The notes under the pieces are model-generated. The model saw nothing but the letters and a program-made list of their open reading frames with translations, did no database searches and was not told the origin of the DNA. Below, piece by piece: positions 468-23,070 of a DNA stretch of 49,556 bases. This DNA is from Nemertoderma westbladi (taxonomy: Eukaryota > Animalia > Xenacoelomorpha). A program made the translations under genes and the position numbers. The first letter of the stretch is position 1; each line of letters starts with the position of its first letter. Where the stretch lies: the NCBI GenBank assembly GCA_032718475.1, contig JAUCBJ010005925.1:1-49556 (forward strand). The letters are read 5' to 3'.

Positions 468-1118
468 CTACTCGCCTTTACGTAGACCTGAACCACGAAT
501 TAGAGTGCCGATGTCCACATCGCTGTGGATTGGCACAGGTTTGACACCCTCCTGGGCCTTAGCCATGATGGTTCCATTGAATGTATATGCCGAGTGAAGC
601 AGACCATTCCGTTTGTGCTCCTTTAAAGTACTGAGTAGAGTGGCACGTCTTTTCGTCAGATGTTCGGTAATAAAGAGGCCGTTTGATGCAACCGAACCCT
701 TGTTTTTCATAACATGGATTTTCTTTGCCTGGGACAGAAGACAGACTAGAACGGGTCGCGATTTGCCATGGTCATTCTTCTTTACCCCGAAACGATGAGA
801 GATATCTATGTCAGAAGGCTGCAACCCGAGATCGTGAAGAACTGGATGGATGGTGATCTTTATTCTCTGGCAGAGCGTGAATCAGGAAATTGGACCTTCG
901 AGAGAACTGATCGAGGTCATCGAACTTTGTATCAAATGTGGCTAATCTAGACTTAAGCGAAGCCGCTTCTATCTCAAGTTGATCGACGCGAAGTAGTAAG
1001 GCGGACAGTTCCGACGTGTCTTTTTTGATGGACGATACTTCCTTCTTAAGGGTGGTGATATCGTTAATTACTTTCTTCAGGGGCGCAACCTCGGACTTGA
1101 GGAACGGAGTTAGGGAAG
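468..1118 (-). pseudogene. Frameshifted LINE ORF1 / L1TD1-like (Transposase_22-like coiled-coil + RRM + CTD) sequence
   Basis: Coiled coil followed by DDLDQFSRRSNFLIHALPE (ORF 811-1194), then in a second frame DIDISHRFG..SRPVLV..LFITEHLTKRRATLL..AYTFNGTI (ORF 468-824). These match the LEQYSRRxN / HR / RPI / I.E.LT motifs of this family. Frameshift near 855. Minus-strand AATAAA at ~337-342. No ORF2 follows. Confidence 0.8.
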
Positions 1119-4100
1119 CTGGTGGGTAAAGGAACGGAGTTAGGGAAGCTGATGAGTAAAGGAACGGAGTTAGGGAAGCTGGTAGGTAAAGCAACGGAGT
1201 TAGGGAAGCTGGTAAGTAAAGGAACGGAGTTAGGGAAGCTGATGAGTAAAGGAACGGAGTTAGGGAAGCTGGTGGGTAAAGGAACGGAGTTAGGGAAGCT
1301 GATGAGTAAAGGAACGGAGTTAGGGAAGCTGGTGGGTAAAGGAACGGAGTTAGGGAAGCTGGTGGGTAAAGAAACGGAGTTAGGGAAGCTGGTGGGTAAA
1401 GGAACGGAGTTAGGGAAGCTGATGAGTAAAGGAACGGAGTTAGGGAAGCTGGTGGGTAAAGGAACGGAGTTAGGGAAGCTGGTGGGTAAAGGAACGGAGT
1501 TAGGGAAGCTGGTGAGTAAAGGAACGGAGTTAGGGAAGCTGGTGAGTAAAGGAACGGAGTTAGGGAAGCTGGTGGGTAAAGGAACGGAGTTAGGGAAGCT
1601 GATGAGTAAAGGAACGGAGTTAGGGAAGCTGATGAGTAAAGGAACGGAGTTAGGGAAGCTGGTGGGTAAAGGAACGGAGTTAGGGAAGCTGGTGGGTAAA
1701 GGAACGGAGTTAGGGAAGCTGGTGGGTAAAGGAACGGAGTTAGGGAAGCTGGTGAGTAAAGGAACGGAGTTAGGGAAGCTGGTGAGTAAAGGAACGGAGT
1801 TAGGGAAGCTGGTGGGTAAAGGAACGGAGTTAGGGAAGCTGATGAGTAAAGGAACGGAGTTAGGGAAGCTGATGAGTAAAGGAACGGAGTTAGGGAAGCT
1901 GGTGGGTAAAGGAACGGAGTTAGGGAAGCTGGTGGGTAAAGGAACGGAGTTAGGGAAGCTGATGAGTAAAGGAACGGAGTTAGGGAAGCTGATGAGTAAA
2001 GGAACGGAGTTAGGGAAGCTGGTGGGTAAAGGAACGGAGTTAGGGAAGCTGGTGGGAAAAGGAACGGAGTTAGGGAAGCTGATGAGTAAAGGAACGGAGT
2101 TAGGGAAGCTGGTGAGTAAAGGAACGGAGTTAGGGAAGCTGGTGGGTAAAGGAACGGAGTTAGGGAAGCTGATGAGTAAAGGAACGGAGTTAGGGAAGCT
2201 GGTGGGTAAAGGAACGGAGTTAGGGAAGCTGGTGGGTAAAGGAACGGAGTTAGAGAAAGGTGGTGAGTAAAGGAACGGAGTTAGGGAAGCTGGTGAGTAA
2301 AGGAACGGAGTTAGGGAAGCTGGTGGGTAAAGGAACGGAGTTAGGGAAGCTGATGAGTAAAGGAACGGAGTTAGGGAAGCTGGTGGGTAAAGGAACGGAG
2401 TTAGGGAAGCTGATGAGTAAAGGAACGGAGTTAGGGAAGCTGGTGGGTAAAGGAACGGAGTTAGGGAAGCTGGTGGGTAAAGGAACGGAGTTAGGGAAGC
2501 TGGTGGGTAAAGGAACGGAGTTAGGGAAGCTGGTGGGTAAAGGAACGGAGTTAGGGAAGCTGGTGGGTAAAGGAACGGAGTTAGGGAAGCTGGTGGGTAA
2601 AGGAACGGAGTTAGGGAAGCTGATGAGTAAAGGAACGGAGTTAGGGAAGCTGGTGGGTAAAGGAACGGAGTTAGGGAAGCTGATGAGTAAAGGAACGGAG
2701 TTAGGGAAGCTGGTGGGTAAAGGAACGGAGTTAGGGAAGCTGGTGAGTAAAGGAACGGAGTTAGGGAAGCTGGTGAGTAAAGGAACGGAGTTAGGGAAGC
2801 TGATGAGTAAAGGAACGGAGTTAGGGAAGCTGGTGGGTAAAGGAACGGAGTTAGGGAAGCTGATGAGTAAAGGAACGGAGTTAGGGAAGCTGGTGGGTAA
2901 AGGAACGGAGTTAGGGAAGCTGGTAAGTAAAGGAATGGAGTTAGGGAAGCTGGTGAGTAAAGGAACGGAGTTAGGGAAGCTGGTAAGTAAAGGAATGGAG
3001 TTAGGGAAGCTGGTGAGTAAAGGAACGGAGTTAGGGAAGCTGATGAGTAAAGGAACGGAGTTAGGGAAGCTGGTGGGTAAAGCAACGGAGTTAGGGAAGC
3101 TGGTAAGTAAAGGAACGGAGTTAGGGAAGCTGATGAGTAAAGGAACGGAGTTAGGGAAGCTGATGAGTAAAGGAACGGAGTTAGGGAAGCTGGTGGGTAA
3201 AGGAACGGAGTTAGGGAAGCTGGTAAGTAAAGGAATGGAGTTAGGGAAGCTGATGAGTAAAGGAACGGAGTTAGGGAAGCTGGTGGGTAAAGGAACGGAG
3301 TTAGGGAAGCTGGTGAGTAAAGGAACGGAGTTAGGGAAGCTGGTGGGTAAAGGAACGGAGTTAGGGAAGCTGGTGAGTAAAGGAACGGAGTTAGGGAAGC
3401 TGGTGAGTAAAGGAACGGAGTTAGGGAAGCTGGTGAGTAAAGGAACGGAGTTAGGGAAGCTGGTGAGTAAAGGAACGGAGTTAGGGAAGCTGGTGAGTAA
3501 AGGAACGGAGTTAGGGAAGCTGGTGGGTAAAGGAACGGAGTTAGGGAAGCTGGTGAGTAAAGGAACGGAGTTAGGGAAGCTGGTGAGTAAAGGAACGGAG
3601 TTAGGGAAGCTGATGAGTAAAGGAACGGAGTTAGGGAAGCTGGTGGGTAAAGGAACGGAGTTAGGGAAGCTGATGAGTAAAGGAACGGAGTTAGGGAAGC
3701 TGGTGGGTAAAGGAACGGAGTTAGGGAAGCTGGTAAGTAAAGGAATGGAGTTAGGGAAGCTGGTGAGTAAAGGAACGGAGTTAGGGAAGCTGGTAAGTAA
3801 AGGAATGGAGTTAGGGAAGCTGGTGAGTAAAGGAACGGAGTTAGGGAAGCTGATGAGTAAAGGAACGGAGTTAGGGAAGCTGGTGGGTAAAGCAACGGAG
3901 TTAGGGAAGCTGGTAAGTAAAGGAACGGAGTTAGGGAAGCTGATGAGTAAAGGAACGGAGTTAGGGAAGCTGATGAGTAAAGGAACGGAGTTAGGGAAGC
4001 TGGTGGGTAAAGGAACGGAGTTAGGGAAGCTGGTAAGTAAAGGAATGGAGTTAGGGAAGCTGGTGAGTAAAGGAACGGAGTTAGGGAAGCTGATGAGTAA

Positions 4101-7100
4101 AGGAACGGAGTTAGGGAAGCTGGTGGGTAAAGGAACGGAGTTAGGGAAGCTGATGAGTAAAGGAACGGAGTTAGGGAAGCTGGTAAGTAAAGGAACGGAG
4201 TTAGGGAAGCTGGTAAGTAAAGGAACGGAGTTAGGGAAGCTGATGAGTAAAGGAACGGAGTTAGGGAAGCTGATGAGTAAAGGAACGGAGTTAGGGAAGC
4301 TGATGAGTAAAGGAACGGAGTTAGGGAAGCTGGTGGGTAAAGGAACGGAGTTAGGGAAGCTGATGAGTAAAGGAATGGAGTTAGGGAAGCTGATGAGTAA
4401 AGGAACGGAGTTAGGGAAGCTGGTAAGTAAAGGAACGGAGTTAGGGAAGCTGGTAAGAAAATGAACGGAGTTAGGGAAGCTGGTGAGTAAAGGAACGGAG
4501 TTAGGGAAGCTGATGAGTAAAGGAACGGAGTTAGGGAAGCTGATGAGTAAAGGAACGGAGTTAGGGAAGCTGGTAAGTAAAGGAACGGAGTTAGGGAAGC
4601 TGGTAAGAAAATGAACGGAGTTAGGGAAGCTGGTGAGTAAAGGAACGGAGTTAGGGAAGCTGGTGGGTAAAGGAACGGAGTTAGGGAAGCTGATGAGTAA
4701 AGGAACGGAGTTAGGGAAGCTGGTGGGTAAAGGAACGGAGTTAGGGAAGCTGATGAGTAAAGGAATGGAGTTAGGGAAGCTGATGAGTAAAGGAACGGAG
4801 TTAGGGAAGCTGGTGGGTAAAGGAACGGAGTTAGGGAAGCTGATGAGTAAAGGAATGGAGTTAGGGAAGCTGATGAGTAAAGGAACGGAGTTAGGGAAGC
4901 TGATGAGTAAAGGAACGGAGTTAGGGAAGCTGGTAAGTAAAGGAACGGAGTTAGGGAAGCTGATGAGTAAAGGAACGGAGTTAGGGAAGCTGATGAGTAA
5001 AGGAACGGAGTTAGGGAAGCTGGTGGGTAAAGGAACGGAGTTAGGGAAGCTGGTAAGTAAAGGAACGGAGTTAGGGAAGCTGGTAAGTTAAGGAACGGAG
5101 TTAGGGAAGCTGATGAGTAAAGGAACGGAGTTAGGGAAGCTGATGAGTAAAGGAATGGAGTTAGGGAAGCTGATGAGTAAAGGAACGGAGTTAGGGAAGC
5201 TGATGAGTAAAGGAACGGAGTTAGGGAAGCTGGTGGGTAAAGGAACGGAGTTAGGGAAGCTGATGAGTAAAGGAACGGAGTTAGGGAAGCTGGTGGGTAA
5301 AGGAACGGAGTTAGGGAAGCTGATGAGTAAAGGAACGGAGTTAGGGAAGCTGGTGGGTAAAGGAACGGAGTTAGGGAAGCTGGTGAGTAAAGGAAGGAAG
5401 TTAGGGAAGCTGGTAAGTAAAGGAACGGAGTTAGGGAAGCTGGTAAGTAAAGGAACGGAGTTAGGGAAGCTGGTAAGTAAAGGAACGGAGTTAGGGAAGC
5501 TGATGAGTAAAGGAACGGAGTTAGGGAAGCTGGTGAGTAAAGGAAGGAAGTTAGGGAAGCTGGTGAGTAAAGGAACGGAGTTAGGGAAGCTGGTGAGTAA
5601 AGGAAGGAAGTTAGGGAAGCTGGTAAGTAAAGGAACGGAGTTAGGGAAGCTGGTAAGTAAAGGAACGGAGTTAGGGAAGCTGGTAAGTAAAGGAACGGAG
5701 TTAGGGAAGCTGATGAGTAAAGGAACGGAGTTAGGGAAGCTGGTGGGTAAAGGAACGGAGTTAGGGAAGCTGGTGAGTAAAGGAAGGAAGTTAGGGAAGC
5801 TGATGAGTAAAGGAACGGAGTTAGGGAAGCTGGTGGGTAAAGGAACGGAGTTAGGGAAGCTGATGAGTAAAGGAACGGAGTTAGGGAAGCTGATGAGTAA
5901 AGGAACGGAGTTAGGGAAGCTGGTAAGTAAAGGAACGGAGTTAGGGAAGCTGGTGGGTAAAGGAACGGAGTTAGGGAAGCTGATGAGTAAAGGAACGGAG
6001 TTAGGGAAGCTGATGAGTAAAGGAAGGAAGTTAGGGAAGCTGATGAGTAAAGGAACGGAGTTAGGGAAGCTGGTAGGTAAAGGAACGGAGTTAGGGAAGC
6101 TGATGAGTAAAGGAACGGAGTTAGGGAAGCTGGTGAGTAAAGGAAGGAAGTTAGGGAAGCTGGTGAGTAAAGGAACGGAGTTAGGGAAGCTGGTGAGTAA
6201 AGGAACGGAGTTAGGGAAGCTGGTGAGTAAAGGAACGGAGTTAGGGAAGCTGGTGAGTAAAGGAACGGAGTTAGGGAAGCTGGTGAGTAAAGGAAGGAAG
6301 TTAGGGAAGCTGATGAGTAAAGGAACGGAGTTAGGGAAGCTGGTGAGTAAAGGAACGGAGTTAGGGAAGCTGATGAGTAAAGGAACGGAGTTAGGGAAGC
6401 TGGTAAGTAAAGGAACGGAGTTAGGGAAGCTGGTGGGTAAAGGAACGGAGTTAGGGAAGCTGATGAGTGAAGGAACGGAGTTAGGGAAGCTGGTAAGTAA
6501 AGGAACGGAGTTAGGGAAGCTGATGAGTAAAGGAACGGAGTTAGGGAAGCTGGTAAGTAAAGGAACGGAGTTAGGGAAGCTGGTGGGTAAAGGAACGGAG
6601 TTAGGGAAGCTGATGAGTAAAGGAACGGAGTTAGGGAAGCTGATGAGTAAAGGAAGGAAGTTAGGGAAGCTGGTGAGTAAAGGAACGGAGTTAGGGAAGC
6701 TGGTGAGTGAAGGAACGGAGTTAGGGAAGCTGGTGAGTAAAGGAACGGAGTTAGGGAAGCTGGTAAGTAAAGGAACGGAGTTAGGGAAGGTGGTGAGTAA
6801 AGGAACGGAGTTAGGTAAGCTGGTAAGTAAAGGAACGGAGTTAGGGAAGCTGGTGAGTAAAGGAACGGAGTTAGGGAAGCTGGTGAGTAAAGGAACGGAG
6901 TTAGGGAAGCTGGTAAGTAAAGGAATGGAGTTAGGGAAGCTGGTAGGTAAAGGAACGGAGTTAGGGAAGCTGGTGGGTAAAGGAACGGAGTTAGGGAAGC
7001 TGGTGGGTAAAGGAACGGAGTTAGGGAAGCTGGTAAGTAAAGGAACGGAGTTAGGGAAGCTGGTGGGTAAAGGAACGGAGTTAGGGAAGCTGATGAGTAA

Positions 7101-10100
7101 AGGAACGGAGTTAGGGAAGCTGATGAGTAAAGGAAGGAAGTTAGGGAAGCTGGTGAGTAAAGGAACGGAGTTAGGGAAGCTGGTGAGTGAAGGAACGGAG
7201 TTAGGGAAGCTGGTGAGTAAAGGAACGGAGTTAGGGAAGCTGGTAAGTAAAGGAATGGAGTTAGGGAAGCTGGTGAGTAAAGGAACGGAGTTAGGGAAGC
7301 TGGTAAGTAAAGGAATGGAGTTAGGGAAGCTGGTAAGTAAAGGAATGGAGTTAGGGAAGCTGGTAGGTAAAGGAATGGAGTTAGGGAAGCTGGTGAGTAA
7401 AGGAACGGAGTTAGGGAAGCTGGTAAGTAAAGGAATGGAGTTAGGGAAGCTGGTAAGTAAAGGAACGGAGTTAGGGAAGCTGGTGAGTAAAGGAACGGAG
7501 TTAGGGAAGCTGGTAAGTAAAGGAATGGAGTTAGGGAAGCTGGTAGGTAAAGGAACGGAGTTAGGGAAGCTGGTGGGTAAAGGAACGGAGTTAGGGAAGC
7601 TGGTGGGTAAAGGAACGGAGTTAGGGAAGCTGGTGAGTAAAGGAACGGAGTTAGGGAAGCTGGTGAGTAAAGGAACGGAGTTAGGGAAGCTGGTAAGTAA
7701 AGGAATGGAGTTAGGGAAGCTGGTAGGTAAAGGAACGGAGTTAGGGAAGCTGGTGGGTAAAGGAACGGAGTTAGGGAAGCTGGTGGGTAAAGGAACGGAG
7801 TTAGGGAAGCTGATGAGTAAAGGAACGGAGTTAGGGAAGCTGGTGGGTAAAGGAACGGAGTTAGGGAAGCTGGTGGGTAAAGGAACGGAGTTAGGGAAGC
7901 TGATGAGTAAAGGAACGGAGTTAGGGAAGCTGATGAGTAAAGGAACGGAGTTAGGGAAGCTGGTAAGTAAAGGAACGGAGTTAGGGAAGCTGGTGGGTAA
8001 AGGAACGGAGTTAGGGAAGCTGATGAGTAAAGGAACGGAGTTAGGGAAGCTGATGAGTAAAGGAAGGAAGTTAGGGAAGCTGGTGAGTAAAGGAACGGAG
8101 TTAGGGAAGCTGGTGAGTGAAGGAACGGAGTTAGGGAAGCTGGTGAGTAAAGGAACGGAGTTAGGGAAGCTGATGAGTAAAGGAACGGAGTTAGGGAAGC
8201 TGGTGAGTAAAGGAAGGAAGTTAGGGAAGCTGGTGAGTAAAGGAACGGAGTTAGGGAAGCTGGTGAGTAAAGGAACGGAGTTAGGGAAGCTGGTGAGTAA
8301 AGGAACGGAGTTAGGGAAGCTGGTGAGTAAAGGAACGGAGTTAGGGAAGCTGGTGAGTAAAGGAAGGAAGTTAGGGAAGCTGATGAGTAAAGGAACGGAG
8401 TTAGGGAAGCTGGTGAGTAAAGGAACGGAGTTAGGGAAGCTGGTGAGTAAAGGAACGGAGTTAGGGAAGCTGGTGAGTAAAGGAACGGAGTTAGGGAAGC
8501 TGGTGAGTAAAGGAACGGAGTTAGGGAAGCTGGTGGGTAAAGGAACGGAGTTAGGGAAGCTGATGAGTAAAGGAACGGAGTTAGGGAAGCTGATGAGTAA
8601 AGGAACGGAGTTAGGGAAGCTGATGAGTAAAGGAACGGAGTTAGGGAAGCTGATGAGTAAAGGAACGGAGTTAGGGAAGCTGGTAAGTAAAGGAACGGAG
8701 TTAGGGAAGCTGGTGGGTAAAGGAACGGAGTTAGGGAAGCTGATGAGTAAAGGAACGGAGTTAGGGAAGCTGATGAGTAAAGGAAGGAAGTTAGGGAAGC
8801 TGGTGAGTAAAGGAACGGAGTTAGGGAAGCTGGTGGGTAAAGGAACGGAGTTAGGGAAGCTGGTGGGTAAAGGAACGGAGTTAGGGAAGCTGATGAGTAA
8901 AGGAACGGAGTTAGGGAAGCTGATGAGTAAAGGAAGGAAGTTAGGGAAGCTGGTGAGTAAAGGAACGGAGTTAGGGAAGCTGGTGGGTAAAGGAACGGAG
9001 TTAGGGAAGCTGATGAGTAAAGGAACGGAGTTAGGGAAGCTGGTGGGTAAAGGAACGGAGTTAGGGAAGCTGATGAGTGAAGGAACGGAGTTAGGGAAGC
9101 TGGTGAGTAAAGGAACGGAGTTAGGGAAGCTGGTGGGTAAAGGAACGGAGTTAGGGAAGCTGATGAGTAAAGGAACGGAGTTAGGGAAGCTGATGAGTAA
9201 AGGAACGGAGTTAGGGAAGCTGATGAGTAAAGGAACGGAGTTAGGGAAGCTGATGAGTAAAGGAAGGAAGTTAGGGAAGCTGGTGAGTAAAGGAACGGAG
9301 TTAGGGAAGCTGGTGGGTAAAGGAACGGAGTTAGGGAAGCTGGTGGGTAAAGGAACGGAGTTAGGGAAGCTGATGAGTAAAGGAACGGAGTTAGGGAAGC
9401 TGGTGGGTAAAGGAACGGAGTTAGGGAAGCTGGTGGGTAAAGGAACGGAGTTAGGGAAGCTGATGAGTAAAGGAACGGAGTTAGGGAAGCTGGTGGGTAA
9501 AGGAACGGAGTTAGGGAAGCTGGTGAGTAAAGGAACGGAGTTAGGGAAGCTGATGAGTAAAGGAACGGAGTTAGGGAAGCTGATGAGTAAAGGAACGGAG
9601 TTAGGGAAGCTGATGAGTAAAGGAACGGAGTTAGGGAAGCTGGTAAGTAAAGGAACGGAGTTAGGGAAGCTGGTGGGTAAAGGAACGGAGTTAGGGAAGC
9701 TGATGAGTAAAGGAACGGAGTTAGGGAAGCTGATGAGTAAAGGAACAGAGTTAGGGAAGCTGGTGGGTAAAGGAACGGAGTTAGGGAAGCTGATGAGTAA
9801 AGGAACGGAGTTAGGGAAGCTGGTGAGTAAAGGAACGGAGTTAGGGAAGCTGGTGGGTAAAGGAACGGAGTTAGGGAAGCTGATGAGTAAAGGAACGGAG
9901 TTAGGGAAGCTGATGAGTAAAGGAACGGAGTTAGGGAAGCTGGTGGGTAAAGGAACGGAGTTAGGGAAGCTGATGAGTAAAGGAACGGAGTTAGGGAAGC
10001 TGGTGAGTAAAGGAACGGAGTTAGGGAAGCTGATGAGTAAAGGAACGGAGTTAGGGAAGCTGGTGAGTAAAGGAACGGAGTTAGGGAAGCTGGTGAGTAA

Positions 10101-13100
10101 AGGAACGGAGTTAGTAAAGGTGGTGAGAGAAGGAACGGAGTTAGGGAAGCTGGTGGGTAAAGGAACGGAGTTAGGGAAGCTGGTGGGTAAAGGAACGGAG
10201 TTAGGGAAGCTGATGAGTAAAGGAACGGAGTTAGGGAAGCTGGTGGGTAAAGGAACGGAGTTAGGGAAGCTGGTGGGTAAAGAAACGGAGATAGGGAAGC
10301 TGGTGAGTAAAGGAACGGAGTTAGGGAAGCTGGTGAGTAAAGGAACGGAGTTAGGGAAGCTGGTGAGTAAAGGAACGGAGTTAGGGAAGCTGGTAAGTAA
10401 AGGAATGGAGTTAGGGAAGCTGGTGGGTAAAGGAACGGAGTTAGGGAAGCTGGTAGGTAAAGGAACGGAGTTAGGGAAGCTGGTGAGTGAAGGAACGGAG
10501 TTAGGGAAGCTGGTGAGTAAAGGAACGGAGTTAGGGAAGCTGGTGAGTAAAGGAACGGAGTTAGGGAAGCTGGTGAGTGAAGGAACGGAGTTAGGGAAGC
10601 TGGTGAGTAAAGGAACGGAGTTAGGGAAGCTGATGAGTAAAGGAACGGAGTTAGGGAAGCTGATGAGTAAAGGAACGGAGTTAGGGAAGCTGGTGGGTAA
10701 AGGAACGGAGTTAGGGAAGCTGATGAGTAAAGGAACGGAGTTAGGGAAGCTGGTGGGTAAAGGAACGGAGTTAGGGAAGCTGGTGGGTAAAGGAACGGAG
10801 TTAGGGAAGCTGGTAAGTAAAGGAATGGAGTTAGGGAAGCTGGTGAGTAAAGGAACGGAGTTAGGGAAGCTGGAGAGTAAAGGAACGGAGTTAGGGATGC
10901 TGGTGAGTAAAGGGACGGAGTTAGGGAAGCTGGTGAGTAAAGGAACGGAGTTAGGGAAGCTGGTGAGTAAAGGAACGGAGTTAGGGAAGCTGGTAAGTAA
11001 AGGAACGTAGTTAGGGAAGCTGGTAAGTAAAGGAACGGAGTTAGGGAAGCTGGTGAGTAAAGGAACGGAGTTAGGGATGCTGGTGAGTAAAGGAACGGAG
11101 TTAGGGAAGCTGGTGGGTAAAGGAACGGAGTTAGGGAAGCTGGTGAGTAAAGGAACGGAGTTAGGGAAGCTGGTAAGTAAAGGAACGTAGTTAGGGAAGC
11201 TGGTAAGTAAAGGAACGTAGTTAGGGAAGCTGGTAAGTAAAGGAACGGAGTTAGGGAAGCTGGTGAGTAAAGGAACGGAGTTAGGGATGCTGGTGAGTAA
11301 AGGAACGGAGTTAGGGAAGCTGGTGGGTAAAGGAACGGAGTTAGGGAAGCTGGTGAGTAAAGGAACGGAGTTAGGGAAGCTGGTAAGTAAAGGAACGTAG
11401 TTAGGGAAGCTGGTAAGTAAAGGAACGGAGTTAGGGAAGCTGGTGAGTAAAGGAACGGAGTTAGGGAAGCTGGTGAGTAAAGGAACGGAGTTAGGGAAGC
11501 TGGTGAGTAAAGGAACGGAGTTAGGGAAGCTGGTAAGTAAAGGAACGTAGTTAGGGAAGCTGGTAAGTAAAGGAACGGAGTTAGGGAAGCTGGTGAGTAA
11601 AGGAACGGAGTTAGGGATGCTGGTGAGTAAAGGAACGGAGTTAGGGAAGCTGGTGGGTAAAGGAACGGAGTTAGGGAAGCTGATGAGTAAAGGAACGGAG
11701 TTAGGGAAGCTGGTGGGTAAAGGGACGGAGTTAGGGAAGCTGGTGAGTAAAGGAACGGAGTTAGGGAAGCTGGTGAGTAAAGGAACGGAGTTAGGGAAGC
11801 TGGTAAGTAAAGGAACGTAGTTAGGGAAGCTGGTAAGTAAAGGAACGGAGTTAGGGAAGCTGGTGAGTAAAGGAACGGAGTTAGGGAAGCTGGTAAGTAA
11901 AGGAACGGAGTTAGGGAAGGTGGTGAGTAAAGGAACGGAGTTAGGGAAGCTGGTGAGTAAAGGAACGGAGTTAGGGAAGGTGGTGAGTGAAGGAACGGAG
12001 TTAGGGAAGCTGGTGAGTAAAGGAACGGAGTTAGGGAAGCTGGTGAGTAAAGGAACGGAGTTAGGGAAGCTGGTGAGTAAAGGAACGGAGTTAGGGAAGC
12101 TGGTGAGTAAAGGAACGGAGTTAGGGAAGGTGGTGAGTAAAGGAACGGAGTTAGGGAAGCTGGTGAGTAAAGGAACGGAGTTAGGGAAGCTGGTGAGTAA
12201 AGGAACGGAGTTAGGGAAGCTGGTAAGTAAAGGAACGGAGTTAGGGAAGCTGGTGAGTAAAGGAACGGAGTTAGGGAAGCTGGTGAGTAAAGGAACGGAG
12301 TTAGGGAAGCGGTGAGTAAAGGAACGGAGTTAGGGAAGGTGGTGAGTAAAGGAACGGAGTTAGGGAAGCTGGTAAGTAAAGGAACGGAGTTAGGGAAGGT
12401 GGTGAGTAAAGGAACGGAGTTAGGGAAGCTGGTGAGTAAAGGAACGGAGTTAGGGAAGCTGGTGAGTAAAGGAACGGAGTTAGGGAAGCTGGTGAGTAAA
12501 GGAACGGAGTTAGGGAAGCTGGTGAGTAAAGGAACGGAGTTAGGGAAGCTGGTGAGTAAAGGAACGGAGTTAGGGAAGCTGGTGAGTAAAGGAACGGAGT
12601 TAGGGAAGCTGGTGAGTAAAGGAACGGAGTTAGGGAAGGTGGTGAGTAAAGGAACGGAGTTAGGGAAGCTGGTAAGTAAAGGAACGGAGTTAGGGAAGCT
12701 GGTGAGTAAAGGAACGGAGTTAGGGAAGCTGGTGAGTAAAGGAACGGAGTTAGGGAAGCTGGTGAGTGAAGAAACGGAGTTAGGGAAGCTGGTAAGTAAA
12801 GGAACGGAGTTAGGGAAGCTGGTGAGTGAAGAAACGGAGTTAGGGAAGCTGGTGAGTAAAGGAACGGAGTTAGGGAAGCTGGTGAGTAAAGGAATGGAGT
12901 TAGGGAAGCTGGTGAGTAAAGGAACGGAGTTAGGGAAGCTGGTGAGTAAAGGAACGGAGTTAGGGAAGCTGGTAAGTAAAGGAACGGAGTTAGGGAAGCT
13001 GGTGAGTGAAGGAACGGAGTTAGGGAAGCTGGTGAGTAAAGGAACGGAGTTAGGGAAGCTGGTGAGTAAAGGAACGAAGTTAGGGAAGCTGGTAGGTAAA

Positions 13101-16100
13101 GGAACGGAGTTAGGGAAGCTGGTAAGTAAAGGAACGGAGTTAGGGAAGCTGGTGAGTAAAGGAACGGAGTTAGGGAAGCTGGTAAGTAAAGGAACGGAGT
13201 TAGGGAAGCTGGTAAGTAAAGGAACGGAGTTAGGGAAGCTGGTGAGTAAAGGAACGGAGTTAGAGAAGCTGGTGAGTAAAGGAACGGAGTTAGGGAAGCT
13301 GGTAAGTAAAGGAACGGAGTTAGGGAAGCTGGTACGTAAAGGAACGGAGTTAGGGAAGCTGGTGAGTGAAGGAACGGAGTTAGGGAAGCTGGTGAGTGAA
13401 GGAACGGAGTTAGGGAAGCTGGTGAGTAAAGGAACGGAGTTAGGGAAGCTGGTGAGTAAAGGAACGGAGTTAGGGTAGCTGGTGAATAAAGGAACGGAGT
13501 TAGGGAAGCTGGTAAGTAAAGGAACGGAGTTAGGGAAGCTGGTGAGTAAAGGAACGGAGTTAGGGAAGCTGGTGAGTAAAGGAACGGAGTTAGGGAAGCT
13601 GGTGAGTAAAGGAACGGAGTTAGGGAAGCTGGTAAGTAAAGGAACGGAGTTAGGGAAGCTGGTGAGTAAAGGAACGGAGTTAGGGAAGCTGGTAAGTAAA
13701 GGAACGGAGTTAGGGAAGCTGGTAAGTAAAGGAACGGAGTTAGGGAAGCTGGTGAGTAAAGGAACGGAGTTAGAGAAGCTGGTGAGTAAAGGAACGGAGT
13801 TAGGGAAGCTGGTAAGTAAAGGAACGGAGTTAGGGAAGCTGGTACGTAAAGGAACGGAGTTAGGGAAGCTGGTGAGTGAAGGAACGGAGTTAGGGAAGCT
13901 GGTGAGTGAAGGAACGGAGTTAGGGAAGCTGGTGAGTAAAGGAACGGAGTTAGGGAAGCTGGTAAGTAAAGGAACGGAGTTAGGGAAGCTGGAGAGTAAA
14001 GGAACGGAGTTAGGGAAGCTGGTGAGTAAAGGAACGGAGTTAGGGAAGGTGGTGAGTAAAGGAACGGACTTAGGGAAGCTGGTGAGTAAAGGAACGGAGT
14101 TAGGGAAGCTGGTGAGTAAAGGAACGGAGTTAGGGAAGCTGGTAAGTAAAGGAACGGAGTTAGGGAAGCTGGTGAGTAAAGGAACGGAGTTAGGGAAGGT
14201 GGTGAGTAAAGGAACGGAGTTAGGGAAGCTGGTGAGTAAAGGAACGGAGTTAGGGAAGCTGGTGAGTAAAGGAACGGAGTTAGGGAAGCTGGTAGGTAAA
14301 GCAACGGAGTTAGGGAAGCTGGTAGGTAAAGGAACGGAGTTAGGGAAGCTGGTGAGTAAAGGAACGGAGTTAGGGAAGCTGGTGAGTAAAGGAACGGAGT
14401 TAGGGAAGCTGGTAAGTAAAGGAACGGAGTTAGGGAAGCTGGAGAGTAAAGGAACGGAGTTAGGGAAGCTGGTGAGTAAAGGAACGGAGTTAGGGAAGGT
14501 GGTGAGTAAAGGAACGGACTTAGGGAAGCTGGTGAGTAAAGGAACGGAGTTAGGGAAGCTGGTGAGTAAAGGAACGGAGTTAGGGAAGCTGGTGAGTAAA
14601 GGAACGGAGTTAGGGAAGCTGGTAGGTAAAGCAACGGAGATAGGGAAGCTGGTGAGTAAAGGAACGGAGTTAGGGAAGCTGATGAGTAAAGGAACGGAGT
14701 TAGGGAAGCTGGTAGGTAAAGCAACGGAGTTAGGGAAGCTGGTAAGTAAAGGAACGGAGTTAGGGAAGCTGGTGAGTAAAGGAACGGAGTTAGGGAAGCT
14801 GGTAGGTAAAGGAACGGAGTTAGGGAAGCTGGTGAGTAAAGGAACGGAGTTAGGGAAGCTGGTGAGTAAAGGAACGGAGTTAGGGAAGCTGGTAAGTAAA
14901 GGAACGGAGTTAGGGAAGCTGGTGAGTAAAGGAACGGAGTTAGGGAAGCTGGTAAGTAAAGGAATGGAGTTAGGGAAGCTGGTGAGTAAAGGAACGGAGT
15001 TAGGGAAGCTGGTGAGTAAAGGAACGGAGTTAGGGAAGCTGGTGAGTAAAGGGACGGAGTTAGGGAAGCTGGTGAGTAAAGGAACGGAGTTAGGGAAGCT
15101 GGTGAGTAAAGGAACGGAGTTAGGGAAGCTGGTAGGTAAAGGAACGGAGTTAGGGAAGCTGGTGAGTAAAGGAACGGAGTTAGGGAAGCTGGTGAGTAAA
15201 GGAACGGAGTTAGGGAAGCTGGTAAGTAAAGGAACGGAGTTAGGGAAGCTGGTGAGTAAAGGAACGGAGTTAGGGAAGCTGGTAAGTAAAGGAATGGAGT
15301 TAGGGAAGCTGGTGAGTAAAGGAACGGAGTTAGGGAAGCTGGTGAGTAAAGGAACGGAGTTAGGGAAGCTGGTGAGTAAAGGAACGGAGTTAGGGAAGCT
15401 GGTGAGTAAAGGAACGGAGTTAGGGAAGCTGGTGAGTGAAGAAACGGAGTTAGGGAAGCTGGTAAGTAAAGGAACGGAGTTAGGGAAGCTGGTGAGTGAA
15501 GAAACGGAGTTAGGGAAGCTGGTGAGTAAAGGAACGGAGTTAGGGAAGCTGGTGAGTAAAGGAATGGAGTTAGGGAAGCTGGTGAGTAAAGGAACGGAGT
15601 TAGGGAAGCTGGTGAGTAAAGGAACGGAGTTAGGGAAGCTGGTAAGTAAAGGAACGGAGTTAGGGAAGCTGGTGAGTGAAGGAACGGAGTTAGGGAAGCT
15701 GGTGAGTAAAGGAACGGAGTTAGGGAAGCTGGTGAGTAAAGGAACGAAGTTAGGGAAGCTGGTAGGTAAAGGAACGGAGTTAGGGAAGCTGGTAAGTAAA
15801 GGAACGGAGTTAGGGAAGCTGGTGAGTAAAGGAACGGAGTTAGGGAAGCTGGTAAGTAAAGGAACGGAGTTAGGGAAGCTGGTGAGTAAAGGAACGGAGT
15901 TAGGGAAGCTGGTAGGTAAAGCAACGGAGATAGGGAAGCTGGTGAGTAAAGGAACGGAGTTAGGGAAGCTGATGAGTAAAGGAACGGAGTTAGGGAAGCT
16001 GGTAGGTAAAGCAACGGAGTTAGGGAAGCTGGTAAGTAAAGGAACGGAGTTAGGGAAGCTGGTGAGTAAAGGAACGGAGTTAGGGAAGCTGGTAGGTAAA

Positions 16101-19100
16101 GGAACGGAGTTAGGGAAGCTGGTGAGTAAAGGAACGGAGTTAGGGAAGCTGGTGAGTAAAGGAACGGAGTTAGGGAAGCTGGTAAGTAAAGGAACGGAGT
16201 TAGGGAAGCTGGTGAGTAAAGGAACGGAGTTAGGGAAGCTGGTGAGTAAAGGAACGGAGTTAGGGAAGGTGGTGAGTAAAGGAACGGAGTTAGGGAAGCT
16301 GGTAAGTAAAGGAACGGAGTTAGGGAAGCTGGTGAGTAAAGGAACGGAGTTAGGGAAGCTGGTGAGTAAAGGAACGGAGTTAGGGAAGCTGGTGAGTGAA
16401 GAAACGGAGTTAGGGAAGCTGGTAAGTAAAGGAACGGAGTTAGGGAAGCTGGTGAGTGAAGAAACGGAGTTAGGGAAGCTGGTGAGTAAAGGAACGGAGT
16501 TAGGGAAGCTGGTGAGTAAAGGAATGGAGTTAGGGAAGCTGGTGAGTAAAGGAACGGAGTTAGGGAAGCTGGTGAGTAAAGGAACGGAGTTAGGGAAGCT
16601 GGTAAGTAAAGGAACGGAGTTAGGGAAGCTGGTGAGTGAAGGAACGGAGTTAGGGAAGCTGGTGAGTAAAGGAACGGAGTTAGGGAAGCTGGTGAGTAAA
16701 GGAACGAAGTTAGGGAAGCTGGTAGGTAAAGGAACGGAGTTAGGGAAGCTGGTAAGTAGAGGAACGGAGTTAGGGAAGCTGGTGAGTAAAGGAACGGAGT
16801 TAGGGAAGCTGGTAAGTAAAGGAACGGAGTTAGGGAAGCTGGTAAGTAAAGGAACGGAGTTAGGGAAGCTGGTGAGTAAAGGAACGGAGTTAGAGAAGCT
16901 GGTGAGTAAAGGAACGGAGTTAGGGAAGCTGGTAAGTAAAGGAACGGAGTTAGGGAAGCTGGTACGTAAAGGAACGGAGTTAGGGAAGCTGGTGAGTGAA
17001 GGAACGGAGTTAGGGAAGCTGGTGAGTGAAGGAACGGAGTTAGGGAAGCTGGTGAGTAAAGGAACGGAGTTAGGGAAGCTGGTGAGTAAAGGAACGGAGT
17101 TAGGGTAGCTGGTGAATAAAGGAACGGAGTTAGGGAAGCTGGTAAGTAAAGGAACGGAGTTAGGGAAGCTGGTGAGTAAAGGAACGGAGTTAGGGAAGTT
17201 GGTGAGTAAAGGAACGGAGTTAGGGAAGCTGGTGAGTAAAGGAACGGAGTTAGGGAAGCTGGTAAGTAAAGGAACGGAGTTAGGGAAGCTGGTGAGTAAA
17301 GGAACGGAGTTAGGGAAGCTGGTAAGTAAAGGAACGGAGTTAGGGAAGCTGGTAAGTAAAGGAACGGAGTTAGGGAAGCTGGTGAGTAAAGGAACGGAGT
17401 TAGAGAAGCTGGTGAGTAAAGGAACGGAGTTAGGGAAGCTGGTAAGTAAAGGAACGGAGTTAGGGAAGCTGTTACGTAAAGGAACGGAGTTAGGGAAGCT
17501 GGTGAGTGAAGGAACGGAGTTAGGGAAGCTGGTGAGTGAAGGAACGGAGTTAGGGAAGCTGGTGAGTAAAGGAACGGAGTTAGGGAAGCTGGTGAGTAAA
17601 GGAACGGAGTTAGGGTAGCTGGTGAATAAAGGAACGGAGTTAGGGAAGCTGGTAAGTAAAGGAACGGAGTTAGGGAAGCTGGTGAGTAAAGGAACGGAGT
17701 TAGGGAAGCTGGTGAGTAAAGGAACGGAGTGAGGGAAGCTGGTGAGTAATGGGAGGAAGTTAGGGAATCTGGTGAGTGAAGGAACGGAGTTAGGGATGCT
17801 GGTGAGTAAAGGAACGGAGTTAGGGAAGCTGGTGAGTAAAGGAACGGAGTTAGGGAATCTGGTGAGTGAAGGAACGGAGTTAAGGAAGCTGGTAAGTAAA
17901 GGAACGGAGTTAGGGAAGCTGGTGAGTGAAGGAACGGAGTTAGGGAAGCTGGTGAGTAAAGGAACGGAGTTAGGGAAGCTGGTGAGTAAAGGAACGGAGT
18001 TAGGGAAGGTGGTGAGTAAAGGAACGGAGTTAGGGAAGCTGGTGAGTAAAGGAACGGAGTTAGGGAAGCTGGAGAGTAAAGGAACGGAGTTAGGGAAGCT
18101 GGTGAGTAAAGGAACGGAGTTAGGGAAGGTGGTGAGTAAAGGAACGGAGTTAGGGAAGCTGGTAAGTAAAGGAACGGAGTTAGGGAAGCTGGTGAGTAAA
18201 GGAACGGAGTTAGGGAAGCTGGAGAGTAAAGGAACGGAGTTAGGGAAGCTGGTAAGTAAAGGAACGGAGTTAGGGAAGGTGGTGAGTAAAGGAACGGAGT
18301 TAGGGAAGCTGGTGAGTAAAGGAACGGAGTTAGGGAAGGTGGTGAGTAAAGGAACGGAGTTAGGGAAGCTGGTGAGTAAAGGAACGGAGTTAGGGAAGCT
18401 GGAGAGTAAAGGAACGGAGTTAGGGAAGCTGGTGAGTAAAGGAACGGAGTTAGGGAAGGTGGTGAGTAAAGGAACGGAGTTAGGGAAGCTGGTAAGTAAA
18501 GGAACGGAGTTAGGGAAGGTGGTGAGTAAAGGAACGGAGTTAGGGAAGCTGGTGAGTAAAGGAACGGAGTTAGGGAAGGTGGTGAGTAAAGGAACGGAGT
18601 TAGGGAAGCTGGTGAGTAAAGGAACGGAGTTAGGGAAGGTGGTGAGTAAAGGAACGGAGTTAGGGAAGCTGGTGAGTAAAGGAACGGAGTTAGGGAAGCT
18701 GGTGAGTAAAGGAACGGAGTTAGGGAAGCTGGTAGGTAAAGCAACGGAGTTAGGGAAGCTGGTAGGTAAAGGAACGGAGTTAGGGAAGCTGGTGAGTAAA
18801 GGAACGGAGTTAGGGAAGCTGGTGAGTAAAGGAACGGAGTTAGGGAAGCTGGTAAGTAAAGGAACGGAGTTAGGGAAGCTGGAGAGTAAAGGAACGGAGT
18901 TAGGGAAGCTGGTGAGTAAAGGAACGGAGTTAGGGAAGGTGGTGAGTAAAGGAACGGACTTAGGGAAGCTGGTGAGTAAAGGAACGGAGTTAGGGAAGCT
19001 GGTGAGTAAAGGAACGGAGTTAGGGAAGCTGGTGAGTAAAGGAACGGAGTTAGGGAAGCTGGTAGGTAAAGCAACGGAGATAGGGAAGCTGGTGAGTAAA

Positions 19101-22074
19101 GGAACGGAGTTAGGGAAGCTGATGAGTAAAGGAACGGAGTTAGGGAAGCTGGTAGGTAAAGCAACGGAGTTAGGGAAGCTGGTAAGTAAAGGAACGGAGT
19201 TAGGGAAGCTGGTGAGTAAAGGAACGGAGTTAGGGAAGCTGGTAGGTAAAGGAACGGAGTTAGGGAAGCTGGTGAGTAAAGGAACGGAGTTAGGGAAGCT
19301 GGTGAGTAAAGGAACGGAGTTAGGGAAGCTGGTAAGTAAAGGAACGGAGTTAGGGAAGCTGGTGAGTAAAGGAACGGAGTTAGGGAAGCTGGTAAGTAAA
19401 GGAATGGAGTTAGGGAAGCTGGTGAGTAAAGGAACGGAGTTAGGGAAGCTGGTGAGTAAAGGAACGGAGTTAGGGAAGCTGGTGAGTAAAGGGACGGAGT
19501 TAGGGAAGCTGGTGAGTAAAGGAACGGAGTTAGGGAAGCTGGTGAGTAAAGGAACGGAGTTAGGGAAGCTGGTAAGTAAAGGAACGTAGTTAGGGAAGCT
19601 GGTAAGTAAAGGAACGGAGTTAGGGAAGCTGGTGAGTAAAGGAACGGAGTTAGGGAAGCTGGTAAGTAAAGGAACGGAGTTAGGGAAGGTGGTGAGTAAA
19701 GGAACGGAGTTAGGGAAGCTGGTGAGTAAAGGAACGGAGTTAGGGAAGGTGGTGAGTGAAGGAACGGAGTTAGGGAAGCTGGTGAGTAAAGGAACGGAGT
19801 TAGGGAAGCTGGTGAGTAAAGGAACGGAGTTAGGGAAGCTGGTGAGTAAAGGAACGGAGTTAGGGAAGCTGGTGAGTAAAGGAACGGAGTTAGGGAAGGT
19901 GGTGAGTAAAGGAACGGAGTTAGGGAAGCTGGTGAGTAAAGGAACGGAGTTAGGGAAGCTGGTGAGTAAAGGAACGGAGTTAGGGAAGCTGGTAAGTAAA
20001 GGAACGGAGTTAGGGAAGCTGGTGAGTAAAGGAACGGAGTTAGGGAAGCTGGTGAGTAAAGGAACGGAGTTAGGGAAGCGGTGAGTAAAGGAACGGAGTT
20101 AGGGAAGGTGGTGAGTAAAGGAACGGAGTTAGGGAAGCTGGTAAGTAAAGGAACGGAGTTAGGGAAGGTGGTGAGTAAAGGAACGGAGTTAGGGAAGCTG
20201 GTGAGTAAAGGAACGGAGTTAGGGAAGCTGGTGAGTAAAGGAACGGAGTTAGGGAAGCTGGTGAGTAAAGGAACGGAGTTAGGGAAGCTGGTGAGTAAAG
20301 GAACGGAGTTAGGGAAGCTGGTGAGTAAAGGAACGGAGTTAGGGAAGCTGGTGAGTAAAGGAACGGAGTTAGGGAAGCTGGTGAGTAAAGGAACGGAGTT
20401 AGGGAAGGTGGTGAGTAAAGGAACGGAGTTAGGGAAGCTGGTAAGTAAAGGAACGGAGTTAGGGAAGCTGGTGAGTAAAGGAACGGAGTTAGGGAAGCTG
20501 GTGAGTAAAGGAACGGAGTTAGGGAAGCTGGTGAGTGAAGAAACGGAGTTAGGGAAGCTGGTAAGGAAAGGAACGGAGTTAGGGAAGCTGGTGAGTGAAG
20601 AAACGGAGTTAGGGAAGCTGGTGAGTAAAGGAACGGAGTTAGGGAAGCTGGTGAGTAAAGGAATGGAGTTAGGGAAGCTGGTGAGTAAAGGAACGGAGTT
20701 AGGGAAGCTGGTGAGTAAAGGAACGGAGTTAGGGAAGCTGGTAAGTAAAGGAACGGAGTTAGGGAAGCTGGTGAGTGAAGGAACGGAGTTAGGGAAGCTG
20801 GTGAGTAAAGGAACGGAGTTAGGGAAGCTGGTGAGTAAAGGAACGAAGTTAGGGAAGCTGGTAGGTAAAGGAACGGAGTTAGGGAAGCTGGTAAGTAAAG
20901 GAACGGAGTTAGGGAAGCTGGTGAGTAAAGGAACGGAGTTAGGGAAGCTGGTAAGTAAAGGAACGGAGTTAGGGAAGCTGGTAAGTAAAGGAACGGAGTT
21001 AGGGAAGCTGGTGAGTAAAGGAACGGAGTTAGAGAAGCTGGTGAGTAAAGGAACGGAGTTAGGGAAGCTGGTAAGTAAAGGAACGGAGTTAGGGAAGCTG
21101 GTACGTAAAGGAACGGAGTTAGGGAAGCTGGTGAGTGAAGGAACGGAGTTAGGGAAGCTGGTGAGTGAAGGAACGGAGTTAGGGAAGCTGGTGAGTAAAG
21201 GAACGGAGTTAGGGAAGCTGGTGAGTAAAGGAACGGAGTTAGGGTAGCTGGTGAATAAAGGAACGGAGTTAGGGAAGCTGGTAAGTAAAGGAACGGAGTT
21301 AGGGAAGCTGGTGAGTAAAGGAACGGAGTTAGGGAAGCTGGTGAGTAAAGGAACGGAGTTAGGGAAGCTGGTGAGTAATGGGAGGAAGTTAGGGAATCTG
21401 GTGAGTGAAGGAACGGAGTTAGGGATGCTGGTGAGTAAAGGAACGGAGTTAGGGAAGCTGGTGAGTAAAGGAACGGAGTTAGGGAATCTGGTGAGTGAAG
21501 GAACGGAGTTAGGGAAGCTGGTAAGTAAAGGAACGGAGTTAGGGAAGCTGGTGAGTGAAGGAACGGAGTTAGGGAAGCTGGTGAGTAAAGGAACGGAGTT
21601 AGGGAAGCTGGTGAGTAAAGGAACGGAGTTAGGGTAGCTGGTGAATAAAGGAACGGAGTTAGGGAAGCTGGTAAGTAAAGGAACGGAGTTAGGGAAGCTG
21701 GTGAGTAAAGGAACGGAGTTAGGGAAGCTGGTGAGTAAAGGAACGGAGTTAGGGAAGCTGGTGGGTAAAGGAACGGAGTTAGGGAAGCTGATGAGTAAAG
21801 GAACGGAGTTAGGGAAGCTGGTGGGTAAAGGAACGGAGTTAGGGAAGCTGGTGGGTAAAGGAACGGAGTTAGGGAAGCTGGTGAGTAATGGGAGGAAGTT
21901 AGGGAATCTGGTGAGTGAAGGAACGGAGTTAGGGATGCTGGTGAGTAAAGGAACGGAGTTAGGGAAGCTGGTAAGTAAAGGAACGGAGTTAGGGAAGGTG
22001 GTGAGTAAAGGAACGGAGTTAGGGAAGCTGGTAAGTAAAGGAACGGAGTTAGGGAAGCTGGTAGGTAAAGGAAC
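1100..22074. repeat. 21-kb satellite, ~700 copies of a 30-bp unit (GGAACGGAGTTAGGGAAGCTGGTGAGTAAA)
   Basis: Uninterrupted 30-bp periodicity. Only three register shifts (+1 near 2255, -1 near 12311, -1 near 20080). Variation is concentrated in the GGTGAG/GATGAG/GGTGGG/GGTAAG positions. Confidence 0.99.
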
Positions 22075-22264
22075 ACAAAAAATTGAAAATTCAATAGCCT
22101 GAAAATTACGATTAAATAAGGTAGTTTGGGTTTGTATATTTTTTAATATTTTAGTAGAATTATGGAAAGTAATAGAAAACATATTTTATATAATATAAAC
22201 ATATAGTATTACATTATATTACTCATATTACGAATAATTTACGAATAGTTGTCTTCACATCTAG

Positions 22265-22398
22265 GAATAAATCCCGATGAGTTTTTATACAACATGCTGC
22301 ATCCACTGGATAGGAATACCAACATACCAATGGAGGATATCCTACGGGTTTATATCTTACTGACACTGACACAACAGCTGGAAAGTATGGGACCACAG
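22265..22398 (+). CDS. Internal exon of RNF115/RNF126-like RING-H2 E3 ligase
   Basis: Acceptor ttcacatctAG|, donor CAG|GTGAGT. Open frame (G)INPDEFLYNMLHPLDRNTNIPMEDILRVYILLTLTQQLESMGPQ ends in phase 0 and joins APPPLSESDIKRLP. The joined sequence resembles the 'LDAIITQLLNQFENTGPPPA..I..LP' segment of RNF126/115. Confidence 0.7.
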
Positions 22399-23070
22399 GT
22401 GAGTGGAAGGGGTGAGCTTACATAACAGCAGAGTATGGGACTTAGGTCAGTACGCGAGTAGGGAAGGGGTGAGCTTACATAACAGCAGAGTATGGTACTT
22501 AGGTCAGTACGCGAGTAGGGAAGGGGTGAGCTTTAACCAACAGCTGAGGATGAGACCACAGGTGAGTGGAAGGGGTGAGCTTACATAACAGCAGAGTATG
22601 GTACTTAGGTCAGTAGGCGAGTAGGGAAGGGGTGAGCTTTAACCAACAGCTGAGGATGAGACCACAGGTGAGATTATGCGACCACAGATGAGTGGGGAAG
22701 GGGTGGGCTTACAAAACAGCTGAGTATGGGACATAGGTGAGTGGGGAAGGGGTGAGCTTTGATAAACAGCTGAGTATGAGACCACAGGTGGGTGGAGAAG
22801 GGGTGGGCTTACACAACAGCTGAGTATAGGACCACAAGTGAATGGGGAAGGGGTGGGCTTACACAACAGCTGAGTATGGAACCACAGGTTAGTGGGGAAG
22901 GGGTGACTTACACACGAGCTGAGTATGCGACCACAGGTGAGTGGGGAAGGGATGATGAGCTTACATAAATAGCTGAGTATGGGACCACGTGAGATTATGG
23001 GACCACAGGTGAGTGGGGAAGGGCAGGGCTTACATAACAGGGACACGTATGGGACTACAGGGAAGTAGGG
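22368..23070. repeat. Degenerate ~48-57-bp tandem repeat (roughly 14 units) copied from the exon end plus splice donor
   Basis: Units such as CTTACACAACAGCTGAGTATGGGACCACAGGTGAGTGGGGAAGGGGTGGG. The first unit overlaps the 3' end of exon 22265-22398. Confidence 0.9.

What the first reader, a model, noticed from the sequence alone, without database searches (positions are those of the whole stretch)
1100..22100. 21-kb satellite that appears to be a ~700-fold amplified 3' splice site
Seen: on the minus strand the unit reads TTTACTCACCAG|CTTCCCTAACTCCGTTCC. It has a pyrimidine run ending in CAG, and a CTAAC branch-like motif about 20 nt before the next AG. The right junction continues into an ordinary intron end (AATTTTCAATTTTTTGTGTTCCTTTACCTACCAG). 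The left junction runs in frame into the ORF1-like sequence (ASLTPFL-KSEVAPLKK). Removing the array leaves one intron/exon boundary with GTTCCT microhomology 30 bp apart, a plausible slippage seed. The common variants (CACCAG, CATCAG, TACCAG) change the intron-side bases but keep the AG. Inference: this is a satellite caught at its birthplace, offering hundreds of candidate acceptors. The unit is 10 stop-free codons, so the ~38 acceptors left of the +1 indel at ~2255 would all stay in frame.
Basis: partly seen in the sequence, partly recalled or inferred. Interest (0 to 1): 0.8.

Follow-up and report, generated by a model that had tools for sequence, protein, structure and literature searches.

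The report
Giant splice-donor repeat, not acceptor
The 21-kb array of 699 copies of a 30-base unit lies just upstream of a spliced exon of a ubiquitin-ligase-type (RING-H2) gene on the opposite strand from the one first proposed, and is likely that gene's own exon end and splice donor copied head-to-tail, a very large case of a repeat type already known from lancelets and humans ("mirage").

Summary
The array is real: 699 units of 30 bp at 1100-22074. In three public runs (two samples) the ORF1-like sequence runs on in frame past 1104 with no intron and without the window's 4-bp frameshift. A run that behaves as RNA shows a spliced PLUS-strand RING-H2 transcript. It enters an exon at the AG at 22264, 190 bases right of the array, and skips a GT-AG intron at 22399-23422. 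On the plus strand each unit reads as exon end plus donor (GT in 582 of 699, G|GTRAGT in 448). Collapsing the array leaves a 204-nt GT-AG intron, and the minus-strand CAG is that donor's reverse complement. The gene's next intron opens with a 50-bp repeat of its own used donor. Best reading: a donor-type 'mirage' minisatellite grown to satellite size (0.75). The upstream exon's letters were not seen, so use of the array's first donor is inferred. The ORF1-like flank is a broken copy of a multicopy element joined through 4-5 shared bases: a private rearrangement or an assembly mis-join. Known kind; interest low.

The parts
1100..22074 (+). 30-bp tandem array, 699 units. Plus-strand unit = 21-22 exon-like bases + donor-like GTRAGT + start of intron
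   Evidence: GT intact in 582 of 699, GTRAGT in 448; 693 of 699 units end in a stop codon in the frame needed to join exon A
1101..1121 (+). Inferred 3' end of the upstream exon of the RING-H2 gene (first unit); inferred authentic donor at 1122
   Evidence: Inference. Open in the phase-1 frame that exon A needs. Run X1 joins a different unique flank at 1101 that is open only in this frame (30 letters read by eye)
22061..22264 (+). 204-nt residual GT-AG intron: donor of the last unit, 190 unique bases (79% A+T), acceptor AG at 22263-22264
   Evidence: the X5 contig leaves the genomic sequence exactly at 22264, while a DNA contig of the same sample (X2) runs on to 22098
22265..22398 (+). Exon A of the RING-H2 gene, 134 nt, phase 1 to phase 0, 44 whole codons
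   Evidence: (X5 record 24)
22366..23080 (+). Second, degenerate 50-57-bp minisatellite built from the end of exon A and its donor (about 11 copies); the first donor is the one used
   Evidence: X5 joins 22398 to 23423
22399..23422 (+). GT-AG intron, 1024 nt
   Evidence: skipped in X5; DNA inside it is held by X2 of the same sample; ends checked
23423..23656 (+). Last coding exon: RING-H2 finger and stop; transcript continues to at least 23889
   Evidence: Pfam zf-RING_2 E 2.1e-15; PDB sequence hits RNF38, RLIM, Praja-1, Arkadia, RNF126
468..1104 (-). Front-truncated, frameshifted copy of an ORF1-like gene (coiled coil + RRM/CTD-like part) of a multicopy element; 4-bp duplication at 843
   Evidence: 392 relatives at E<=0.001; both halves match one profile in order, E 3e-14 and 8e-43, the second by construction; contig depth 115-164 vs 14.5 at EXT1 in X1, 90-116 vs 17-19 in X2
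1100..1104 (.). Junction of element and array through 4-5 shared bases
   Evidence: intact element leaves at 1104; the other X1 flank enters at 1101
1081..1121 (+). Candidate 41-nt chimeric exon in this assembly: T-rich acceptor from the element's antisense strand at 1080 + first donor of the array. Untested
   Evidence: sequence only; open in the required frame

Best explanation
The array is likely a donor-type 'mirage' minisatellite: the last 21-22 bases of an exon of the plus-strand RING-H2 gene and the first 8-9 bases of the next intron, copied head-to-tail 699 times into what would otherwise be a 204-nt intron. Shown: the array; the plus-strand spliced gene; use of the acceptor at 22264; a consensus donor in most units; the same kind of repeat at the gene's next donor, where the first copy is used. 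Inferred: a 5-base direct repeat 30 bp apart (one copy in the exon, one in the intron) seeded a duplication by slippage. Unequal exchange then grew it, leaving identical blocks of up to 35 units several kb apart. The spliceosome would use the most upstream donor and remove the rest with the intron. Use of a later donor would add an in-frame stop before the RING finger, so such products would be lost. The 'acceptor' on the minus strand is the reverse complement of the donor. The ORF1-like sequence at the left is not the array's parent. It is a broken copy of a multicopy element that in this assembly replaces the front of the upstream exon; a real insertion or deletion in this haplotype and an assembly mis-join are about equally likely.
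For:: X5 record 24 (576 nt) = 41 unlaid letters + 22264-22396 + 23421-23628 + 23696-23889; the first skip is GT-AG once shifted by the ambiguous AG, which fixes the plus strand; 582 of 699 units keep GT; the collapsed intron is 204 nt with GT and AG ends; the exon-like part is open in the required phase. X1 holds another unique flank joined at 1101; of three frames only the required one is open through its 30 shown letters (by eye; about an even chance for one given frame); the intact element has no intron at 1104 in 3 of 3 runs that cover the place; the neighbouring repeat is an amplified used donor; the donor core alone explains the acceptor look. Known precedent: PMC3087553, PMC3902484 (passages), PMC1557585 (abstract).
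Against: The 41 upstream letters of the X5 contig were not shown, so no call shows that the upstream exon ends in the unit. The spliced transcript rests on one contig (depth 10.9) of one run whose RNA nature is inferred, not on record. The other X1 flank is not listed for X2 or X3. The window itself holds no intact upstream exon. The 9-base core reads as donor on one strand and acceptor on the other, so the shuffle test cannot choose the strand; 1.9% of shuffles give a G|GTRAGT donor by chance. The first unit in the window has a weak donor (GTGGGT).
Confidence: 0.75

Rival explanations
1. An ordinary satellite of unrelated origin sits inside an intron of the RING-H2 gene; its donor-like and acceptor-like motifs are chance, and the true upstream exon lies further left or on another contig.
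For: The upstream exon was not seen. X1 holds two different left neighbours of unit-like sequence and apparently more GTGAGT-type copies than the window (about 28 depth units per window copy against 11 for two other types), so a second locus is possible. X5 holds a unit variant that is not among the window's variants.
Against: G|GTRAGT arises in only 1.9% of shuffles. The polarity fits a donor repeat, with the last unit running into a short intron whose acceptor is used. The next intron of the same gene has a proven donor repeat. The second X1 flank is open in just the required frame.
Confidence: 0.17
2. One reading: an amplified 3' splice site of a minus-strand ORF1-like gene, offering hundreds of acceptors.
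For: 667 of 699 units carry YAG with a pyrimidine run and a CTAAC 21 nt upstream; the junction is in frame.
Against: Intact copies continue in frame with no intron at 1104 in X1, X2, X3. The window's copy is frameshifted at 843. The flank taken for an intron end belongs to a plus-strand gene. All three minus-strand frames of a pyrimidine-rich unit are open in 56% of shuffles, and at least two in 96%, so the in-frame junction is unremarkable.
Confidence: 0.03
3. The array is an assembly over-expansion of a short minisatellite.
For: Only short-read contigs could be laid; no listed piece spans the array.
Against: About 50 unit variants in a regional pattern with kb-scale duplications. X1 contigs of single unit types have depth 1000-6111 against 4-19 for unique sequence, about 11-28 per window copy (types inferred from the number of differences; depth is a rough guide).
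Confidence: 0.05

Closest known systems
Lancelet 'mirage' minisatellites (Adh3, globins BflGb6 and BflGb9, troponin C, PGBD5); PMC3087553 and PMC3902484, matching passages read
   Same: Tandem copies of an exon-intron boundary; many but not all copies keep the splice signal; normal mRNA is still made; either boundary can be duplicated; unit size (10-160 bp there) includes 30 bp.
   Different: 699 copies and 21 kb here against 3-6 copies at BflGb6; a different animal; here the front of the parent exon is replaced by an element fragment in the assembly, and use of the first donor of the 30-bp array is inferred.
Human F7 intron 7 37-bp VNTR; PMC1557585, abstract and outline read
   Same: First unit spans the exon-intron boundary; later units are functional pseudo-donors that stay silent because the most upstream donor is chosen.
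   Different: 'Several' pseudo-sites there, hundreds here; the scanning rule was shown in mammalian cells and is untested in this animal.
LINE ORF1-like / baculovirus FP25K-related coiled-coil proteins (left flank only)
   Same: Coiled coil followed by a domain whose relatives match Pfam Baculo_FP_2nd (10 of 40 top hits at E<=0.001; the window's own piece E 0.023); Atlas clusters with Baculo_FP_2nd 50% and Transposase_22 20% of members.
   Different: No reverse-transcriptase frame follows within the 467 bases left in the window; the class of element is not established, and 'ORF1-like' is a resemblance partly recalled.

Membership tests
Mirage minisatellite, donor type (30-bp array) | Unit spans an exon-intron boundary of a real gene | tested here: inconclusive
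   Gene, downstream acceptor, donor consensus, phase and polarity fit; the upstream exon's letters were not shown
Mirage minisatellite, donor type (30-bp array) | Many but not all copies keep the splice signal | tested here: met
   GT in 582 of 699, GTRAGT in 448
Mirage minisatellite, donor type (30-bp array) | mRNA uses the authentic (first) site and skips the copies | tested here: inconclusive
   X5 contig enters exon A after only 41 unlaid letters; which donor it left from is not shown
Mirage minisatellite, donor type (30-bp array) | Length or sequence varies between haplotypes | tested here: inconclusive
   Variant proportions in X1 differ from the window and X5 has a variant the window lacks; no second full-length allele seen
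Mirage minisatellite, donor type (50-bp neighbour, 22366-23080) | Unit spans a real boundary and the first site is used | tested here: met
   X5 splices at 22398; later copies repeat the exon end and donor
   Intact copies run on in frame past 1104 in X1, X2, X3
   Only unstranded contigs were available
RING-H2 E3 ligase (host gene) | C3H2C3 zinc ligands | tested here: met
   Translation; zf-RING_2 57.2 bits against cut-off 27.3
Autonomous LINE (left flank) | ORF2 with reverse transcriptase after ORF1 | tested here: inconclusive
   No frame of 100 aa in 1-467; the element goes on at least 1.8 kb beyond the window start

The most novel reading that the evidence does not exclude
In this haplotype a mobile-element fragment has cut off the front of a coding exon right at the first repeat unit, and its antisense strand supplies a new T-rich acceptor (1080). 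The gene would then survive through a 41-nt chimeric exon spliced across about 580 decoy donors. The decoys nearest the exon are the weak or dead ones (GTRAGT in 112 of the first 300 units against 303 of the last 349), which would mean selection shapes a satellite's sequence to protect splice-site choice.
Probability: 0.1. Interest if true: 0.55.

Novelty: new member of a known kind. Interest (0 to 1): 0.25.

Why it matters
The correction matters for annotation: the array is not a bank of alternative acceptors for an ORF1-like gene but, likely, a bank of decoy donors in a ubiquitin-ligase gene. If so, it is a natural test of the 'first donor wins' scanning rule at about a hundred times the scale of the known cases, with a built-in readout, since any later donor adds a stop. 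The type is in print, and unreviewed notes describe many equally large arrays in this same genome, so this locus adds one example rather than a new principle. The genome-wide abundance of such arrays is more interesting than this locus.

Tried and rejected
No whole genome is held for the window, so other loci of the unit or the element could not be searched. No RNA holder was listed by the run search; X4 and X5 were recognised as RNA-like only from intron skips. X4 has no depth at 22035-23366 and covers only 50-227 of the left flank; that is no evidence on expression. The two loose-end sequences (intact element front; other X1 flank) are not in the window with up to 3 mismatches. The unit has no significant match elsewhere in the window; its local likeness to the 50-bp neighbour was reached by 26 of 500 shuffles and is treated as shared donor motif and G-richness, not descent. 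Exact unit pattern in metagenome contigs: 0. Word-based protein searches found nothing among longer proteins for the ORF1-like half or exon A, so the full host protein and its upstream exon were not found; orthology (RNF38/RLIM/Praja/RNF126 group) is unresolved. Earlier findings by sequence or nearby place: none. Paper searches: mirage/amphioxus gave 2 papers; acoel plus minisatellite terms (15 of 35 listed, titles and abstract starts only) and boundary-spanning repeat terms (3 papers) showed no report of satellite-size mirages; the library lacks most subscription papers, so this is not proof of absence. Supplements of the cited papers were not read. Selection on splice signals was considered and not claimed: units descend from each other, so the counts are not independent. 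Recursive splicing was considered and rejected: plus-strand units have no pyrimidine tract before their AGs. No structure prediction or complex job was run.

Full report
The array. Tandem Repeats Finder gives one array at 1100-22074, period 30, 699.2 copies, 95% matches. Parsing gives 699 units and about 50 variants, with length changes only at 2240, 12291 and 20060. Variation is concentrated at unit positions 23, 25 and 26 (16%, 22%, 18%); other positions vary by 6.5% or less. Identical runs of 35, 32 and 27 units recur 4-8 kb apart, as expected of growth by unequal exchange. Contigs of single unit types in run X1 have depth 1000-6111 against 4-19 for unique sequence, about 11-28 per window copy, so over-expansion is unlikely. 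The right junction is held by an X1 contig with no differences. X1 matches the window in all 8 pieces listed there and may be the assembly's own sample, so it is not independent.

The minus-strand motifs. They are present: YAG in 667 of 699 units, CTAAC 690 times, branch-like A 21 nt from the AG end. But a quarter of base shuffles of this pyrimidine-rich unit give a YAG with a pyrimidine tract, and 3% also give a branch-like motif. At least two minus-strand frames are open in 96% of shuffles. With those 9 bases fixed, 46,737 of 50,000 shuffles look like an acceptor on the other strand. Sequence alone therefore cannot choose the strand.

The left flank. 468-1104 on the minus strand is an ORF1-like gene piece: 392 relatives at E<=0.001, both halves in order on one profile, weak links to Baculo_FP_2nd and Transposase_22. 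In X1, X2 and X3 (two samples, two studies) the contig covering it leaves the window at 1104 and goes on for more than 250 letters with the same non-array sequence. Read by eye, the 30 letters shown are ten sense codons in the same frame that continue the coiled-coil heptad pattern, with no pyrimidine tract. All three runs also lack the 4-bp duplication at 843 that shifts the window's frame. These contigs are 8-11 times (X1) and 5-7 times (X2) deeper than EXT1, so they stand for a multicopy element, and the window has a broken copy. The window's junction uses 4-5 bases shared by element and unit. It is in no listed contig, which proves little because contigs drop rare paths. X1 holds a different unique flank joined to the unit at 1101.

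The real host gene. In one search, X5 record 24 (576 nt, depth 10.9) consists of 41 unlaid letters, then 22264-22396, 23421-23628 and 23696-23889. Shifted by the ambiguous AG, the first skip is a GT-AG intron at 22399-23422. X2, DNA of the same sample, holds sequence inside it and runs on leftwards past 22264 to 22098, so both joints are splicing and the strand is plus. The exons encode 44 residues and then a RING-H2 finger (Pfam E 2.1e-15; closest solved relatives RNF38, RLIM, Praja-1, Arkadia, RNF126). The upstream donor must lie left of 22264. Short pieces are not listed in that table (in one search a 20-letter piece appears only among the joints), so a 21-base match of the unlaid letters to the unit is neither shown nor excluded.

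How it likely works. With all but one unit removed, the locus is an exon end, a donor, 190 A+T-rich bases and the used acceptor: a 204-nt intron. Exon A needs a phase-1 donor; the unit's exon-like part is open in that frame, and the other X1 flank is open only in that frame through the 30 letters shown (by eye; modest evidence). GT survives in 582 of 699 units and GTRAGT in 448; 693 of 699 units end in a stop in that frame, so only the first donor can give a RING protein. The gene's next intron begins with a 50-57-bp repeat of the end of exon A and its donor, and there X5 uses the first copy. I infer the same for the 30-bp array: slippage between two 5-base repeats 30 bp apart, growth by unequal exchange, and tolerance because the most upstream donor is chosen. 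Strong donors are rarer near the exon (112 of the first 300 units; dead ATGAGT in 100) than far from it (303 of the last 349; ATGAGT in 5). This may be drift of related units; it was not tested statistically.

Against this reading. The upstream exon was not seen. The transcript is one contig of one run. The other X1 flank is not listed for X2 or X3. The window holds no intact upstream exon, only a possible 41-nt chimeric one (1081-1121) whose length happens to match the 41-42 unlaid letters in X5; X5 comes from a sample in which the window's junction was not seen, so this may be coincidence. X1 depth is low at 22045-26083 (2-5 against 10-19 further right), so haplotypes may differ here in ways I could not resolve.

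Comparison with the known. Tandem duplications of exon-intron boundaries are the lancelet 'mirages' (PMC3087553 and PMC3902484, matching passages read). The human F7 intron 7 VNTR shows first-donor choice (PMC1557585, abstract). The name and these papers came to me through unreviewed notes on other windows of this genome, which describe many arrays of this type up to 63 kb. Those notes raised my odds for the donor reading from 25% (stated) but are not evidence; I did not check their loci. The organism is an animal (EXT1 44-49% identical to the listed vertebrate and sea-urchin hits); one note suggests an acoel, unchecked.

Verdict. Observation partly confirmed; interpretation right in kind, wrong in strand, site and gene. 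Donor-type mirage 0.75, unrelated intronic satellite 0.17, over-expansion 0.05, acceptor of the ORF1-like gene 0.03. New member of a known kind; interest 0.25.

Noticed in passing
window 29079-31608 (-): Two-exon exostosin (EXT1-like) gene; the 397-nt GT-AG intron 29503-29899 is skipped in run X4. Its stop abuts a 28-bp tandem repeat at 28868-29091.
   Followed up: yes
window 50-227: An X4 contig ends at 227 in letters that resemble a template-switching cDNA adaptor (recalled, not checked), hinting at minus-strand RNA from the element downstream of the ORF1-like frame.
   Followed up: no
window 22035-22074: X5 holds array sequence at higher depth relative to DNA run X2 (0.14) than three other repeats (0.001-0.01), while X4 holds none; a weak hint of intron-containing RNA.
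   Followed up: partly
window 23629-23721: A 28-bp tandem repeat overlaps the RING gene's stop codon; the X5 contig lacks 67 bases here without GT-AG ends, likely an allele with a different protein end.
   Followed up: no
window 12-114: 38-bp tandem repeat in the element copy; the contigs of the four runs show one unit fewer.
   Followed up: partly
window 48544-49503: A 960-bp near-perfect inverted repeat (92% identity to its own reverse complement); smaller palindromic elements at 26949-27169 and 43703-44067, and inverted pairs at 41351-41817/42790-43227 and 37382-37591/38096-38296.
   Followed up: no
window 42113-42523 (+), inside the inverted pair 41351-43227: YqaJ-like recombinase fragment (E 0.00067) between inverted repeats; likely a decayed DNA transposon.
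   Followed up: no
window 24059-24235, 26089-26603, 27240-27339: Very high-copy interspersed repeats (summed depth up to 7.8e5 in X2); 26133-26543 encodes a DUF6451-bearing fragment typical of LINE ends (LINE link recalled).
   Followed up: no
window 23068-23093, 24856-24880, 48346-48377 and others: Several pure G runs of 20-32 bases.
   Followed up: no
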